DNA from: Styela clava
Taxonomy: Eukaryota
Direction of reading: 5' to 3'
Length of the DNA: 64,000 bases
Assembly (NCBI RefSeq): GCF_964204865.1
Contig: NC_135263.1
Coordinates: 6,448,001-6,512,000, forward strand
Position numbers: made by a program. How positions within the stretch are numbered: position 1 is the first letter of the stretch; each line of letters starts with the position of its first letter. Positions 39,001 through 45,000 of the stretch are shown here, piece after piece.

Positions 39001-42000
39001 CAAATAGTTTCATCGACTTATTTATCCACTTCCTTCTACTGCATGAAATCCTCACTTTACAGTAGTATAAAACTCATTCATTCCATAAAATTTTTGTATT
39101 CCATGAATGTAATTATGAATGCAAATGTCGAAATGGGCATAGAATAAAAACACGTTTTTTAAGCACTTGGAAATGCTTAGGCGGAGTTGCTAGCATATTT
39201 AAAACAAGGATTTCTTATAAGAGACACCAAGCTATGATGAATCGTGTAAGCTCCTTCACACTGCAACTCCAAATTAAAAAACTCAATAAAACTCTGATGT
39301 TAAAAATGCACTGAGCAGAATCTGTTCTGTTGTCGCGTCAAAGCGATCTACCTGATTAAAATATATATATAGATTCATACCATACATATGTTTTAAGTTT
39401 TTCGCATGATACACGTTCCATGAATGAATCGAGTTATTTTTCTATGAATGAACCGATGAACAAGTGACATAGCAATCAAATATAAAATTATTGCACAGAT
39501 TGAAAAACTTTTCCAATGTAGTTTGCAATAAAGTTGAAACAAAATGAAAACAATTTTCATCTCACTACTCTTTTAGATCTAACTAATGAAATTATGCAAA
39601 ATCCACTCTTTGTGAGCTGCGACTCTTGCAAAGTACTTTGGCACATTGAGTTTTCCGCACGGTGCAACCTGGAAACTTGCTACTCCAACAACATAGTTGT
39701 TTCCATTCCATTCACATACAAGAGAACTTCCATCATCGCCCTAGAAAATCAATACAGTGTGATTGTATACCATAATTACATTACCCTATCAGTGACATGT
39801 ACGATTAAAATATTATAACAATCTAATTGAAGCCTTCATTCTTCAAGTAAAATCAACATGGGATTTACCTTATATCAACATTGAAGATTGAACAAGTAAA
39901 ATAGTTTTATGCAAAGGGAAGGAAGGAATGAAGAGTCCCAAAATAGCAAATAGAGGAATCTTACAAAAAAGGTTGTGAACCAGTGCCACAAATTATGTAA
40001 AATGAGTATAATGGCAGGAGATATGTTGAATAAAAATTGGACAATTTTAAACTTTGAAACAATATACAGACAAAAATGTAAAGTCATTATACTCGATCTT
40101 TAGATTCATTCATTCAAGATTCAATTAGCGGTTAAGTTCACTGCAGTTCTACTTTGTTTTCGGTTACCTTTTTGCCAGAACGTCTATTAGCATAATTGTT
40201 GCAACATTGCCAATCTTTGATAATGTTATGATGGTATTAATATAGCCTAGTAACTTACTGGGAGTGAGAAAAGATCAAGTTTGGGAATTGTTGTATTGTA
40301 TTTGTAAAAATTTTAAGATCAACACATTGAGAATGAGGTACTAGATGAATGCAATGCAACAAGTGTTGAGATGGGATTCCTATATATACTAAATAGACAA
40401 TAACTTAAACTGAAAGTTCAAGGATAATAATATATAATGACTTGTGGCCAGATTGAATAAAAGTCCCTGAACTGCAAGTCACGAGTCAGCTGAGTCAATC
40501 ACTGAGTTATGTTAAACTGGTGGTTAGTTGAGTCTGAGCCATTTCATTTGGATGACACAAGTCTTTGATAAATGGCTGAGTTAATACCTCAAGCACCCCA
40601 AACACTGCCTGAGACAATGCAATTTCAACAACCATTATTCTTTATTAACATGCTATTGCACTTGAAGAACGAATATTATTCTTACAACAACCCACAGTAT
40701 GTTTTGAGATGAAACTTACATCACAAAGAGTTTGCTGCGTTCCATCAAAATGCCCAGCACATATTATCGAAGTTGTATTAATTGTTCTTCCAAATGATGT
40801 TGTTGACAATGCATCACAATGGTCATCAGATAGTACTGGTAGTTCTATTGAATGAAGTGGTTGAATACCTGAAAATAATTGAACATGAATATTACCGAAA
40901 CTTTGACTTTCTAAAATTTGTAGGTTGCGATTCCAGAATATATTTCTGAATGGGTGGCGAGAAATATTCAATCTCCGTACAATATAAGCAGAGCTGGTGT
41001 CCTTTCTTCCTGTTTTTTTTTTCACAAAGCTTTTCAGACTTGTATACTTTATGCTAACCATATCTCATGAATAATACAATGTGTATATAATCACTGGGAA
41101 CAACTTACTTATGAGAAGTTACTTTGCATTGAATTAGTTCAAAACATTTACGCTGCTTACCTCCGTTACCTTCTGCATCCCAACCAGCCACTCTACAATA
41201 CTGCTTTGCTATTTCTATTCTACCAAAATTTGAGGAATCCGATACCACATGAGGGTAAGGAAGGCATGCAACTGATGCATCAAGAGTAGATTTAACAGCA
41301 ATCTGAAAGTATAGACATATTTTTCATCAAAAATTCTTGATGATTATAATTTATGAATCAGTTAATACTTCTATTTTTATAGTGGGCAACAAGCAAAATC
41401 AGGTTGCAAAACATAAAACAAAATTTCTGTTTCTTTTTAAATTTCTGTCTATTTAAATAATAATGACTCAACATCGCTTGAATGTTGAGCTTGTAGCCCG
41501 TTAGCGATTACATGATCCATCCTGTCAGAGCAGACTATAAATTCGCAATATGCCATTACGATGCATTTGCAGACTCCTCATTACGATTATAACCTATAGT
41601 CATATTATAATTACCGTACTGGAAATAAAAGCGTTAAATAAAATTGTATAATGCTAGTCCATCAGAAATTTCTGTGTTCATTTTTAGCGCAATTGAATGC
41701 TGATATATAGACAAATACAAACCCATTGACTTATTAAGAGGTCTGGCTAACCTTGATCACCGCAATATCATTATTCATGTTGTCATCAAATTCAGGATGA
41801 ACATGAATATTTTTAATTCTCACTAAAGTTGCTCCATCACTTGTATTCATTGATTGTTTGTTGTCTGTGTTTTGAGCCGTAAATACATGGATAAGATTCA
41901 GCAAGATTCGCAGGCTTGATCCTCCATAACCAACAATGACATCTGACATGCTTTAGATTTAAATTTCAGATATATGTAAAAATTGTTAGTAGGCAGAAAA

Positions 42001-45000
42001 TAAACTTAGGAAATAAACAAACGCTGACTTATAAACAAATTTACACGATGGCCTAGTGGTTAAAGAGCTATACCCTAATTGTGTTGGCATCGCATGTTAT
42101 ACTTCTCAAGTTCGAATCCCATGCCCACCACCTCACCCAAGGTGTAAGAAAAGATTCGGTCCATCCAGAAACAGTAGATCCTTGCATATCGTTGGATATC
42201 AGTGGCTGCTTTTAAAGTTCATTGCTTGGAATGAAAGCATCAAATAAAAAAATCAAATCTGCCTACAAAATGTTATTACTGAAAATTGAAAAATTCTTTG
42301 CCAAGTTCATCTTTAAAACTATATGATAATTCTAAATAAAACAAACAAAAACACTCATTATTTCTTTTCTGAAGTTATTAGAACTTTAGTTAGGTTGTTG
42401 ATCAATTGGAAGAATAATTTGTATTTTTAGTTATATTCTTTATAAAAACAACTATGCAAGAATCGATATGAATTTATTTTAAATCTTAAATTCTTTTTCC
42501 GGAATTGATAATAAATCTACTACCTTTCTTTTGTTAAGTCTGATACACAATGAGCTGCTGTTATCAGGTACTGTGAGTGAACAAACGTTGCGCCACATAA
42601 ATGCTGTTGTCCTTGTAGAGATATTAAACTTGCATGCCAAGGAACCGATGATACTTCAGTTTCTGTGCCACCAACCAAACGTCCTTTCTTTTTTCCAGCT
42701 ACTGATGCACAATCTATTAATTGGTAAATGATAAGTGTTGTTAAAAAAAAAATAATTTAAAAGTCAATTGTATTTTAAACTTAAAAACAAACAAGTTGTC
42801 TCTAGTGTTGATGAGGCGTCATTCATTGACTCAAATTAAGCTTGAGTCGCCATCTACCAAAATCTAAAAAAAATATCAAAATTGGGAATTCCTTCAATGA
42901 GATCGATGTGCTTGCATATTATGTACGAAAGATCAAATCTTGGCTCCATTTTGGTGATGATGGGTCGTCGTACTGGTTACAAATCTTTCAAATTTGATCA
43001 ATATTTTGATTCAACACAAGTTAATGTAAAAAAAAAAGCCAATTGAACCCTTTCCGAGCCCCCAGTTTGAAGAACGCTGATCTAAATGATATGATTTCGT
43101 ATGATATGATACGTCATCGACCACAAGTACACTGACACTGAAACGTACGCCAACCCTGAAAGACATTTAGATAACATATGTGATTAAACTGCCTACCTTG
43201 GCCATAAGTAAAATTTCCCCACCAGATGAATGGCCTGAGAGTACCTATAATTTGGCATACCTAACGGCATTGTTCAATAGACAATAGTAAAAAGAATATA
43301 GTTCAGAATAACCTGCTAATTTCTCAGGTAGTTGCTCTGTATCCCATGTTGCTGAAAAACCAGTTGCAACAAAGTCATTATTGCTGAAGAATCGAATTAA
43401 CATTTTCCCATTCATGCTAATGAATGGACCCAGGGTTGTTTTCCATTGTCCTGAAAATAATTTTTTCAGTCATTCAAAAAACAAAGACTATCTTACTAAT
43501 ACTCTGACATGTATGGAAATAATAGTGCGCTTAAATTTACCACACTATGTGCCCGTCAATTATTGTCAGCTTATCCAGACTACACAAAGTTTTGACATCA
43601 AATATTGGTATAACAGTACCTAGAATGGGTTCAAAACATATTACACCAATTTTTTTGTGATAAATCTTGTTTTACTGAATGACTGATTCAAACCATGGGC
43701 ATACAGATAAAAAGTTATGTTTTGCATCAAAGAAAGATAAAAACTATTGATGTATAATGGAGTAGAGTAAGAATATGAAGTAAGATTCCTGGTAAAATTG
43801 AGAGGTTCGTACAGATATTGCTATTATTTTTCAAAGCAAAGACAAAAGTCAATCCACAGTGTGAGATCTATTTTACTTAAAAGTGCTAAGCTGAATAAGA
43901 ATGCGTCCAGATCTATTCTTATGAATGTAAAGTATAAAGTTAAATGAAATTATTATATAGCTGACCACAAATTCGCCCAAGAACATTAGAATTCTCCAGT
44001 GAGGAGTCATCTCCATCAACAATTACTAAACTATCTTCAGTACATCTTCCATATTCATTTGGTTTGGATTTCCCAATGTCAACATTGTGTAACCACAGAT
44101 ATATTTTTTTCCCGGGAGCTAAAAAAATGTATGAGGTTGGAAACATGATTGATAGATATCCAAGAATATAAAATTTGCGGTTATGTGGCAAGATGATCTG
44201 ATTTATTTTATTATTAAGACATCAAGAATGTCAAGGATGACAAAATTTGCATACAAATAATTTGCATTGATTAAACTGTGAAACATAATTCATGTGTTGA
44301 ATTATCAACAAGTTAAACAGGTATTGCGCACCACTCACATAAAATGCAAATAAGATTAAATAAAAAAAAATTTCGATAGATATCATTCAATCAAAATTAT
44401 AATTTTCTTATTTGTCAAAGGAGAATTTAATAAAAACAAGATTACAACACTCTCACAGAAGTAAAGGATACTCATTTCATAGCAAAGTTACAGGAGACAA
44501 CTAAAATTTCAAAAGCTGTTTGGGTGAGAATTAATATTCTTGTTATATTTGTTAATAAGTACATATTTTACAACAGTATAAGCATAGCAGTCAGTCCAAT
44601 GATTTTGATATAAAGATGTGATTGTGCAAATATGCGTCATCTGACCAGCAATTGCATAAATAATGCTGAGATAACATGAAGTCTACCAATCTTTTGAAAA
44701 TGATCATAACCCACAAAATTAAAAACGGTGATCCTCATGTAGAGCAATATATTGAAGAAATGGCGAGTGTGTTCCTATGTAGAACAACTATCGAATCGCC
44801 AAATAAAGGAAACTTCCTCAGTGATTAAACACATGACATTGATATATTATCAGAGCCTATCAAAGAGAAAACAATTATAATACAAATGAAGATTACCAGA
44901 CAAATACCTATAATAGTCCAGTCACACAAAATATTCAATCTATATTTCAAAGGAAATCCTGGGCTACTGAATACTCCACTGTCACTGGATAAAACTCCAC

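What the first reader, a model, noticed from the sequence alone, without database searches (positions are those of the whole stretch)
39723..42713. Catalytic Ser195 replaced by Asp while the zymogen activation site is kept: a cleavage-activated pseudoprotease
Seen: the last exon starts GGC GAT GAT GGA AGT (GDDGS instead of GDSGG; Asp codon 39734-39732) and the S1 position 189 is Thr (TLCD|GDD). His (TAAHC), Asp (NDIA), Asp194, the linker Cys (DCAS) and a basic KKKGR|LVGG site are all retained, with no stops or frameshifts. Known: HGF/MSP and haptoglobin are inactive protease folds that are still proteolytically processed and act as ligands, and arthropod clip-domain serine protease homologs act as cofactors. 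Inference: cleavage at R|L switches a binding surface rather than an enzyme.
Basis: partly seen in the sequence, partly recalled or inferred. Interest (0 to 1): 0.75.

Follow-up and report, generated by a model that had tools for sequence, protein, structure and literature searches.

The report
Inactive trypsin-like domain, mosaic protein
The last five exons of a large animal gene for an extracellular protein encode a trypsin-like domain whose catalytic serine is an aspartate, which makes it one more inactive "protease homolog" of a well-known kind, not a new mechanism.

Summary
On the minus strand, five GT-AG exons (42713-39579) encode a chymotrypsin-fold domain. It keeps His57 (TAAHC), Asp102 (NDIA), Asp194, Gly193, the paired cysteines and a basic R|LVGG site. 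Position 195 is Asp (GAT, 39734-39732), 189 is Thr, 216 is Gln and 226 is Lys. The window holds no second trypsin exon and no GDSGG-coding sequence.

The domain follows a three-exon CUB domain in phase. Upstream on the same strand lie at least 14 Sushi-bearing ORFs and weak ricin-B matches, up to the window edge. It is therefore probably the C-terminal module of a large extracellular mosaic protein.

No full-length relative was found. The closest relatives are two short ORF fragments (52-58% identical). One covers position 195 and also has Asp. Both share Gln216 and Arg226, which argues for a maintained gene.

Serine protease homologs, including cleavage-dependent ones and rare Ser195-to-Asp cases, are already documented. 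I rate this a new member of a known kind, with low to moderate interest. Cleavage activation is plausible from the motifs but untested. One mildly new lead: Asp195 co-occurs with Arg/Lys226 (3 of 5 Asp195 matches against 5 of 175 others).

The spliced protein was never joined, searched or folded.

The parts
42524..42713 (-). Trypsin-like exon A. It carries the linker Cys, the basic KKKGR|LVGG site, the Cys42...Cys58 pair and His57 in TAAHC. It starts with 2 nt of a split Asp codon and ends with 2 nt of a split codon.
   Evidence: Pfam Trypsin E 1.8e-10; aligned to plasma kallikrein R|IVGG...TAAHC, E 8.9e-10
41752..41950 (-). Trypsin-like exon B, ending in NNDIAVIK (Asp102). By my eye it holds an unusually long stretch between the first beta strands and HPEF. 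The acceptor is aaag|C.
   Evidence: Pfam Trypsin 16.0 bits, E 0.011, below the cut-off; own profile positions 85-118
41161..41302 (-). Trypsin-like exon C, with Cys in ...ACLP... (position 122 by recalled numbering), Cys136 and AGWD in place of GWG. A second GT lies 9 nt upstream (exon would end at 41170), in the same phase.
   Evidence: no Pfam hit alone; weak on own profile (E 0.052)
40720..40868 (-). Trypsin-like exon D: LPVLSDDHC...IICAGHFDGTQQTLCD. It carries the Cys168/Cys182 pair, Thr189, Cys191 and Asp192.
   Evidence: weak alignment to bovine trypsin, E 0.4; own profile positions 165-200, E 4e-6 in a search of 5 sequences
39579..39740 (-). Last exon, GDDGSSLVC...SFQVAPCG...VPKYF..., followed by the TAG stop at 39581-39579. 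It reads Gly193, Asp194, Asp195 (GAT 39734-39732), Ser214, Gln216, Cys220 and Lys226.
   Evidence: Pfam Trypsin E 8.4e-6; aligned to kallikrein-4 GDSGGPLIC...SFGKAPCG...VPGVY
39732..39734 (-). GAT codon, giving Asp at the position of catalytic Ser195.
43313..45011 (-). CUB domain in three GT-AG exons (45011-44908, 44118-43966, 43450-43313). The last exon ends ...LPEKLA plus one G, which joins exon A in phase to give Asp-Cys-Ala-Ser.
   Evidence: Pfam CUB 22.4 bits (E 1.6e-4) and 16.3 bits (E 0.012) on two of the open frames
45730..46668 (-). Open frames with a weak ricin-B-type lectin match just upstream of the CUB domain. Exon limits were not determined.
   Evidence: Ricin_B_lectin 17.1 bits, below the 29-bit cut-off, on 46402-46668; no hit on 45730-46014
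47724..63999 (-). A run of open frames on the same strand, reaching the window edge, that carry Sushi/CCP repeats and two more weak ricin-B matches (55563-55811, 59256-59579). This is presumably the upstream part of the same gene, whose 5' end lies outside the window. Exon limits were not determined.
   Evidence: Sushi at E<=0.05 in 14 of the 24 open frames scanned, 12 of them above the gathering score

Best explanation
The region encodes the C-terminal module of a large secreted or extracellular mosaic protein of an AT-rich animal genome. The order is many Sushi/CCP repeats with ricin-B-like lectin pieces, then one CUB domain, then a chymotrypsin-fold domain.

That last domain is a non-catalytic serine protease homolog. 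Asp stands where the Ser195 nucleophile should be. The substrate pocket is altered too: Thr189, Gln216 and Lys226 replace Asp/Ser189, Gly216 and Gly226. The fold itself, the paired cysteines, His57, Asp102, Gly193 and Asp194 are all kept.

Most likely the gene is functional and the domain serves as a binding or cofactor module.

The retained basic site ...KKKGR|LVGG, Asp194 and a cysteine on each side of the site suggest a specific sequence of events. An upstream trypsin-like protease would cut after the Arg. The two chains would stay joined by a disulfide. The new Leu N-terminus would pair with Asp194 and reorder the former active-site region. That would turn a recognition or scaffold protein 'on' in an extracellular cascade or matrix setting.

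Shown here: the sequence features, the exon structure, the domain order, and the sharing of Asp195, Gln216 and basic 226 with the nearest relatives. Inferred: that all upstream exons belong to one transcript, that cleavage occurs, and what the domain binds.
For: - Five in-phase GT-AG exons with no stop.
- Trypsin family matches, and column-for-column alignment of GDDGS with GDSGG.
- Asp195 cannot be a one-base slip, because GAT differs from every Ser codon at two or more positions (read from the sequence).
- No other trypsin-like exon exists in the window. In tblastn, each of the 5 exon peptides found only itself below E 0.1. The degenerate GDSGGP-coding pattern gave 0 matches at up to 2 mismatches.
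- The CUB exons join exon A in phase. CUB exon 1 starts mid-codon behind an AG acceptor, so further exons must lie upstream.
- Sushi repeats occur in 14 of 24 upstream open frames on the same strand.
- The nearest relatives among 1.84 billion representatives are two short ORF fragments. P0014 (52% identical) reads D-D-G-G-G at positions 194-198. P0014 and P0020 both keep Gln at 216 and Arg at 226, and 19 columns are invariant across the three sequences.
- Among the 180 local matches that cover position 195, 5 have Asp. Of those, 3 have Arg at 226, against 5 of the other 175 with Lys/Arg (Fisher p 5.6e-4).
- Literature: of 125 Tenebrio protease homologs, Ser195 is replaced by G, T, N, L, V or I, and in 1-4 cases each by A, M, D, E, K, R, Y or F. 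Most are 'presumably processed by trypsin' (PMC11172050, passages seen).
- Literature: clip-domain homologs are non-catalytic and their activation requires proteolytic cleavage (PMC6901238, start of abstract in the listing).
Against: - There is no expression or cDNA evidence, so the splice model is by eye.
- Exons C and D are not significant on their own against Pfam.
- No full-length relative or ortholog was found. Two word-based searches for longer proteins gave nothing; these cover only proteins up to 2000 residues, which a mosaic this size may exceed.
- Conservation rests on two short unnamed fragments, and only one of them covers position 195. Its first residue is M where Gly193 is expected, probably a gene-caller start.
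- The Asp195/Arg226 association is biased, because the query itself carries Asp and Lys. The matches are not independent.
- Whether the Arg|Leu bond is ever cut is untested. As I recall, some known homologs are cut elsewhere.
- The ricin-B matches are all below Pfam's cut-off.
Confidence: 0.55

Rival explanations
1. The domain is a constitutive binding module. It is a functional, non-catalytic homolog, but the R|LVGG motif and Asp194 are inherited leftovers, so the protein acts uncut or is cut elsewhere.
For: Nothing here shows cleavage. In insect surveys, activation-type motifs are retained by many homologs whose processing is only presumed (PMC11172050 passages). The site has Leu rather than the usual Ile/Val after the Arg.
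Against: Asp194, Gly193, the LVGG N-terminus and a Cys on each side of the site are all kept together. Asp194 is also kept in relative P0014.
Confidence: 0.25
2. The gene is a decaying copy, a pseudogene or a dying terminal domain. The Ser-to-Asp change and the pocket changes would then be neutral damage.
For: No expression data exist. No full-length ortholog was found. Exon B has an unusually long insert and a weak acceptor. Gly142 is also replaced, giving GWD.
Against: About 270 codons in five exons, plus three CUB exons, are all open with canonical splice sites and matching phases. Every cysteine expected from the fold is present. Asp195, Gln216 and basic 226 are shared with fragments only 52-58% identical, which neutral decay would not preserve.
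Confidence: 0.12
3. The domain is still a hydrolase, using Asp195 with His57 and Asp102 through an activated water or some other unconventional chemistry.
For: His57, Asp102, Gly193 and Asp194 are all retained. Strict retention of the other two triad residues is not required for a pure binding module.
Against: I know of no chymotrypsin-fold peptidase with an Asp nucleophile (recalled). A search for S195D / Ser195Asp found no relevant paper (1 paper, unrelated). Gln216 and Lys226 should obstruct the S1 pocket (inference from the alignment).
Confidence: 0.04
4. The finding is an artefact of assembly or haplotype: the real gene encodes GDSGG, or an alternative last exon outside the window does.
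For: Only one assembly copy was seen. Other haplotypes could not be checked.
Against: Asp to Ser needs at least two base changes. A relative also has Asp at this position. No alternative exon exists anywhere in the 64 kb. The exon ends with a stop codon, and the next gene on that strand is a DNA-PKcs homolog.
Confidence: 0.03

Closest known systems
Invertebrate serine protease homologs (SPHs), for example the insect clip-domain SPHs that act as cofactors in prophenoloxidase activation
   Same: Both have a chymotrypsin fold with Ser195 replaced, a retained basic processing site and an extracellular setting. In the insect proteins the homolog is non-catalytic and needs proteolytic cleavage to act (PMC6901238, abstract start; PMC10540698, listing only). 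Ser195-to-Asp occurs among the Tenebrio SPHs (PMC11172050).
   Different: No clip domain was seen here. The domain directly upstream is CUB, behind a long Sushi / ricin-B-like array. The organism is unidentified and no arthropod affinity was shown. Gly is the common replacement in insects, and Asp is rare.
HGF / MSP (plasminogen-related growth factors)
   Different: HGF and MSP have kringle domains and a PAN domain upstream, different triad replacements (recalled) and are vertebrate proteins. No kringle is present here. The resemblance is of mechanism only.
Haptoglobin
   Same: CCP/Sushi repeats are followed by an inactive chymotrypsin-fold domain, which is proteolytically processed and used for binding (recalled).
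   Different: In haptoglobin the CCP domain abuts the protease-like domain, and both His57 and Ser195 are replaced (recalled). Here CUB abuts it, His57 is kept and there are many more repeats.
MASP / C1r / C1s, and horseshoe crab factor C (mosaic recognition-linked zymogens)
   Same: These are mosaics that combine CUB and/or Sushi and lectin-type modules with a C-terminal trypsin-like domain activated at an Arg|Ile bond (recalled). One weak MASP-3 match was seen for exon D (E 1.7).
   Different: Those are active enzymes with fixed orders: CUB-EGF-CUB-CCP-CCP-SP, and EGF-Sushi-LCCL-C-lectin-Sushi-SP (recalled). Here the order is Sushi/ricin-like array, CUB, then the homolog. No EGF, LCCL or C-type lectin was detected, and the nucleophile is lost.
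P0047-type proteins (CUB-CUB-Trypsin-Trypsin-like; an unnamed representative)
   Same: A CUB domain sits next to the protease domains. The second domain has G-D-D-G at positions 193-196 and Arg at 226, as here.
   Different: Exon E is only about 35% identical to that domain. That domain has also lost His57. Its protein has an active first protease domain, and no Sushi domain was reported for it.
Azurocidin / heparin-binding protein
   Same: It is an inactive chymotrypsin-fold protein used for binding. It is among the best PDB matches of exon E (E 5e-5).
   Different: It is a single-domain granule protein with Ser195 and His57 both replaced (recalled). It has no zymogen-type two-chain form and is a vertebrate protein.

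Membership tests
Peptidase S1 / chymotrypsin fold (Pfam PF00089 Trypsin) | Sequence match to the family profile over the whole domain, in order | tested here: met
   Exons A and E are above the gathering score and exon B below it. Exons C and D have no hit alone. All five are colinear on a profile built from 9 hits. The joined domain was not scanned.
Peptidase S1 / chymotrypsin fold (Pfam PF00089 Trypsin) | Conserved cysteine pairs 42-58, 168-182 and 191-220 (plus 136-201 and 122-linker in mosaics) | tested here: met
   A cysteine is present at each expected place in the exon translations. Alignments cover positions 42, 58, 168, 182, 201 and 220. The pairing itself was not modelled.
Active S1 serine peptidase | Catalytic triad His57, Asp102, Ser195 | tested here: not met
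   His and Asp are present. Position 195 is Asp.
Serine protease homolog (non-catalytic S1 member) | S1 fold with one or more triad residues replaced | tested here: met
   This is the definition used in PMC1761132 and PMC11172050 (passages).
Serine protease homolog (non-catalytic S1 member) | Absence of peptidase activity | not testable with these tools
   Needs recombinant protein and activity or probe assays.
Clip-domain SPH (arthropod cofactors) | One or more clip domains N-terminal to the protease-like domain | tested here: not met
   The adjoining upstream exons encode CUB. No clip family was reported for any of the 24 upstream open frames.
MASP / C1r / C1s | Domain order CUB-EGF-CUB-CCP-CCP-SP (recalled) | tested here: not met
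   A single CUB directly abuts the protease-like domain. The Sushi repeats lie upstream of it, and no EGF was detected.
Cleavage-activated two-chain zymogen-type protein | Basic residue before an (I/V/L)-V-G-G N-terminus, Asp194, and cysteines able to tether the chains | tested here: met
   KKKGR|LVGG with a Cys before the site, a Cys in ...ACLP... and Asp194. These are sequence motifs only.
Cleavage-activated two-chain zymogen-type protein | Actual cleavage at that bond and a conformational change | not testable with these tools
Needs protein chemistry.

The most novel reading that the evidence does not exclude
Asp195 may not be mere loss of the nucleophile. It could be half of a selected, recurrent remodelling in which a basic side chain at 226 (Lys here, Arg in P0014, P0094 and P0047) rises through the former S1 pocket and pairs with Asp195. 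That would give a 'self-plugged' active site. The resulting surface, once the Arg|Leu bond is cut, would become the binding face of a lectin/Sushi/CUB recognition protein in a complement-like or clotting-like cascade of a non-arthropod invertebrate.
Probability: 0.12. Interest if true: 0.5.

Novelty: new member of a known kind. Interest (0 to 1): 0.25.

Why it matters
As it stands, this is a correct annotation point. The gene should be labelled a non-peptidase homolog of family S1 at the end of a Sushi / ricin-B-like / CUB mosaic, not a protease.

Inactive protease homologs are abundant and well studied in invertebrates, so the finding opens no long-standing question. Two things give it modest value:

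- The domain combination (a lectin-like and Sushi array, then CUB, then a dead protease) was not found described in the papers searched. It fits the logic of recognition-linked cascades.
- Asp195 co-occurs with a basic residue at 226 in sequences only 31-40% identical to one another. This is a cheap, testable structural hypothesis about how a dead active site is stabilised.

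Tried and rejected
**Searches for relatives**
- Two word-based searches for longer proteins, with exon E and with exon A, gave 0 hits (1 and 18 candidates). They cover only proteins up to 2000 residues.
- A profile of exon E plus the two fragments, searched at similar lengths, returned only those two fragments. All three searches of this kind are used.
- The full HMMER scan with exon E gave 102 proteins, none above 56% identity.
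- Scoring the five exons separately against these 102 showed only generic 22-58% similarity per exon and no close full-length relative.

**Alternative last exon**
- None was found, by tblastn or by a degenerate GDSGGP-coding pattern.

**RNA and repeats**
- Rfam at gathering threshold and ARAGORN found nothing in the window. A tRNA-like look in intron 1 (about 42040-42170) therefore remains only an impression. That stretch is not a high-copy repeat in the window.

**Literature**
- No paper in the library describes S195D / Ser195Asp as such (1 paper, unrelated).
- No paper describes this Sushi-ricin-CUB-homolog combination (listings only, nothing matching by title or abstract).
- The supplementary tables of PMC11172050, which list every Tenebrio homolog with its 189/216/226 residues, were closed. 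They might bear on the Asp195/basic-226 association.

**Left out**
- There is therefore no 3-D model, no whole-domain Pfam score, no exact-sequence look-up and no test of the Asp195-Lys226 distance.
- No complex prediction was run, because no partner is known.
- Organism identity was not established.
- dN/dS could not be computed, because no DNA of relatives is available.

**Human check**
- I do not take the window for human. GC is 31-38% throughout. The DNA-PKcs exon shares 42 of 76 aligned columns with the human protein, by my count.

Full report
**1. What is in the sequence**

The window is AT-rich throughout (GC 31-38% in 2-kb steps) and contains no N. I read the minus strand from 43000 to 39400. 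It holds five open segments flanked by AG and GT. Each was translated on its own and checked by script:
- Exon A, 42713-42524
- Exon B, 41950-41752
- Exon C, 41302-41161
- Exon D, 40868-40720
- Exon E, 39740-39579, ending in TAG

The intron phases are 1 (before A), 2, 0, 1 and 0. Every split codon is consistent and there is no internal stop.

Exon B needs the acceptor aaag|C at 41950. The stronger-looking tcag 8 bases further on would break the frame.

Exon C has a second GT nine bases upstream, in the same phase. It could remove three residues.

An in-frame TAG lies directly upstream of 39740. The acceptor used is therefore the only one that can supply Gly193 in this frame.

**2.

Scanned separately against Pfam:

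| Exon | Trypsin (PF00089) result |
|---|---|
| A | 41.5 bits, E 1.8e-10, profile 2-46 |
| B | 16.0 bits, E 0.011, profile 42-93 (below the 20.6-bit cut-off) |
| C | no match at E<=1 |
| D | no match at E<=1 |
| E | 26.2 bits, E 8.4e-6, profile 178-220 |

On a profile I built from 9 single-domain hits, the five exons fall in order at positions 20-70, 85-118, 139-150, 165-200 and 205-254. Two caveats apply. Those 9 hits were chosen by similarity to exon E, and exon C is weak there.

Against PDB sequences:
- Exon A aligns R|LVGG...TAAHC with R|IVGG...TAAHC of plasma kallikrein (E 8.9e-10).
- Exon E aligns GDDGSSLVC...SFQVAPCG...VPKYF with GDSGGPLIC...SFGKAPCG...VPGVY of kallikrein-4 (E 1.9e-5).
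- Exon D aligns weakly with bovine trypsin around LSDSSC...CAGY (E 0.4).

In the usual chymotrypsin numbering (recalled), this gives:
- His57, Asp102 (NNDIAVIK), Gly193, Asp194 and Ser214 are kept.
- Position 195 is Asp (GAT 39734-39732).
- Position 189 is Thr, counted back from Cys191.
- Position 216 is Gln instead of Gly.
- Position 226 is Lys instead of Gly.
- The GWG turn reads GWD.

Cysteines stand at all the places expected for the 42-58, 136-201, 168-182 and 191-220 pairs. One more precedes the basic site and one sits in ...ACLP....

The Gln216 and Lys226 changes are additional, and they make loss of a normal substrate pocket more certain.

**3. Could a normal exon exist elsewhere?**

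tblastn of the five exon peptides against the whole window finds each only once. The next best match has E 0.11. A degenerate pattern for a GDSGGP-coding stretch has 0 matches at up to two mismatches, against 0.70 expected by chance. GAT differs from every serine codon at two or more positions, so a single-base error cannot explain the Asp.

**4. Context**

Stop-to-stop frames on the same strand upstream were scanned against Pfam. Of the 24 frames given:
- 14 match Sushi at E<=0.05, 12 of them above the gathering score.
- 3 match Ricin_B_lectin, all below the 29-bit cut-off (best 26.3 bits).
- 2 match CUB, one above the cut-off.

I resolved the CUB domain into three GT-AG exons: 45011-44908, 44118-43966 and 43450-43313.

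CUB exon 1 begins mid-codon behind an AG, so the gene must continue upstream. The Sushi frames run to the window edge at 64000, so the 5' end is not in view. That all of these belong to one transcript is inference.

Downstream on the same strand, from about 38 kb to the start of the window, lies a DNA-PKcs homolog. One exon matches human DNA-PKcs residues 1015-1090 at E 8.6e-21, with 42 of 76 aligned columns identical by my count. These features point to an animal that is not human. The species was not determined.

**5. Relatives**

Word-based searches for longer proteins with exon E and with exon A found nothing. They are limited to 2000 residues, and a mosaic of this size may exceed that.

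The exhaustive HMMER scan of 1.84 billion representatives with exon E gave 102 proteins at E<=0.001. Most are multi-protease proteins that score through many repeats, and none is above 56% identical.

The two nearest are short ORF fragments without names:
- P0014: 63 residues, 52% identical.
- P0020: 67 residues, 56-58% identical.

A profile search at similar lengths returned only these two.

P0014 reads D-D-G-G-G where this gene reads D-D-G-S-S, so it also carries Asp195. P0020 starts after that point. Both keep Gln at 216 and have Arg at 226. Nineteen columns are invariant among the three sequences.

Scoring the five exons separately against all 102 proteins showed only generic similarity, 22-58% per exon. 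No full-length ortholog is available.

**6. How unusual is Asp195?**

Among the 190 local matches of exon E to those 102 proteins, 180 cover position 195:

| Residue at 195 | Matches |
|---|---|
| Ser | 130 |
| Gly | 29 |
| Thr | 7 |
| Asp | 5 |
| Pro | 2 |
| Ile, Lys, Val, Gln, Ala, Asn, Phe | 1 each |

In Tenebrio molitor, 125 homologs carry triad replacements. Ser195 is replaced by 26 G, 21 T, 11 N, 10 L, 9 V and 7 I, and 1-4 times each by A, M, D, E, K, R, Y or F. Most are presumed to be processed by trypsin (PMC11172050, passages).

Honey-bee proteases and homologs carry Sushi, CUB, lectin and other modules (PMC1761132, passages).

Clip-domain homologs are non-catalytic and need proteolytic cleavage to act (PMC6901238, abstract start in the listing).

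**7. One pattern that may be new**

Of the 5 Asp195 matches, 3 have Arg at 226 (P0014, P0094 and the second domain of P0047). Of the other 175, 5 have Lys or Arg. Fisher's exact p is 5.6e-4. With the window's own Lys226, that makes four Asp195 domains with a basic 226.

The three hits are only 31-40% identical to one another over this stretch. P0047 is CUB-CUB-Trypsin-Trypsin-like, and its second domain has also lost His57.

Several caveats apply:
- The query itself carries Asp and Lys, which favours such hits.
- The matches are not independent.
- The numbers are small.
- Two Asp195 domains (P0053, P0050) have Gly or Ala at 226.
- The Tenebrio Nudel homolog domain is listed with D at 195 and A at 226.

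A salt bridge between a basic 226 side chain filling the pocket and Asp195 is geometrically plausible from what I recall of the fold. I could not model it.

**8. Most likely function**

With about 0.9 confidence the domain is not a peptidase.

With about 0.75 confidence the gene is maintained. The grounds are open frames, canonical splice sites, all cysteines present, and the unusual residues being shared with diverged relatives.

Cleavage after the Arg would leave a disulfide-tethered two-chain form, with the Leu N-terminus pairing with Asp194. This is the natural reading of the retained motifs, and I put it near 0.5. The main alternative is a constitutive binding module with leftover motifs.

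The upstream Sushi, ricin-like and CUB modules suggest an extracellular recognition or scaffold role. Which one remains open.

**9. Comparison and verdict**

The domain works like the insect homolog cofactors, HGF/MSP and haptoglobin. It is not a member of any of them:
- It has no clip domain and no kringle.
- CUB, not CCP, abuts the domain.
- The MASP/C1r domain order is not met.

It is a member of family S1 as a non-peptidase homolog. I rate it a new member of a known kind, with interest 0.25.

**10. What was left out**

There is therefore no whole-domain score, no exact-sequence look-up and no 3-D model. The DNA of relatives, other haplotypes and expression data stayed unchecked.

Noticed in passing
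window 1-38000, minus strand (for example 24971-25270): A DNA-PKcs (PRKDC) homolog occupies the rest of the window on the same strand, downstream of the mosaic gene. One exon matches human DNA-PKcs residues 1015-1090 at E 8.6e-21, with about 55% of aligned columns identical by my count.
   Followed up: partly
window 53983-54660, with copies near 34383-34568, 60728-60838, 55950-56113, 50058-50186, 12162-12461, 36801-36901 and 51208-51275: An interspersed repeat of roughly 100-190 bp, 64-80% identical between copies, sits in introns of both genes and occurs twice in tandem at 54.2-54.7 kb. No Rfam family or tRNA was called anywhere in the window.
   Followed up: partly
window 41161-41170, minus strand: Exon C has two GT donors nine bases apart in the same phase (…GAAG|GTAACGGAG|GTAAGC). 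Use of the upstream one would drop three residues (Gly-Asn-Gly) from the loop after GWD.
   Followed up: no
window 41752-41950, minus strand: By my eye and recalled family lengths, exon B encodes about 18 more residues between the GYGG strand and HPEF than typical trypsins. Its acceptor has a poor pyrimidine tract. No short intron that would remove the extra stretch was evident.
   Followed up: partly
window 45730-46668, 55563-55811, 59256-60067, minus strand: Open frames among the Sushi exons show weak ricin-B-type lectin matches (15.4-26.3 bits, all below Pfam's 29-bit cut-off). This suggests up to three beta-trefoil lectin modules in the mosaic.
   Followed up: no
window 42953-42970, plus strand: A six-residue peptide identical to the start of exon E (G-D-D-G-S-S) appears in a plus-strand frame between the CUB and trypsin-like exons. 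tblastn gives E 7.4, so I take it for chance.
   Followed up: no
window 42040-42170 (intron after exon A): A stretch that looks like a T-arm of a tRNA on the plus strand. ARAGORN and Rfam call nothing there. It has only one short 80%-identical partner in the window, at 57022-57072.
   Followed up: partly
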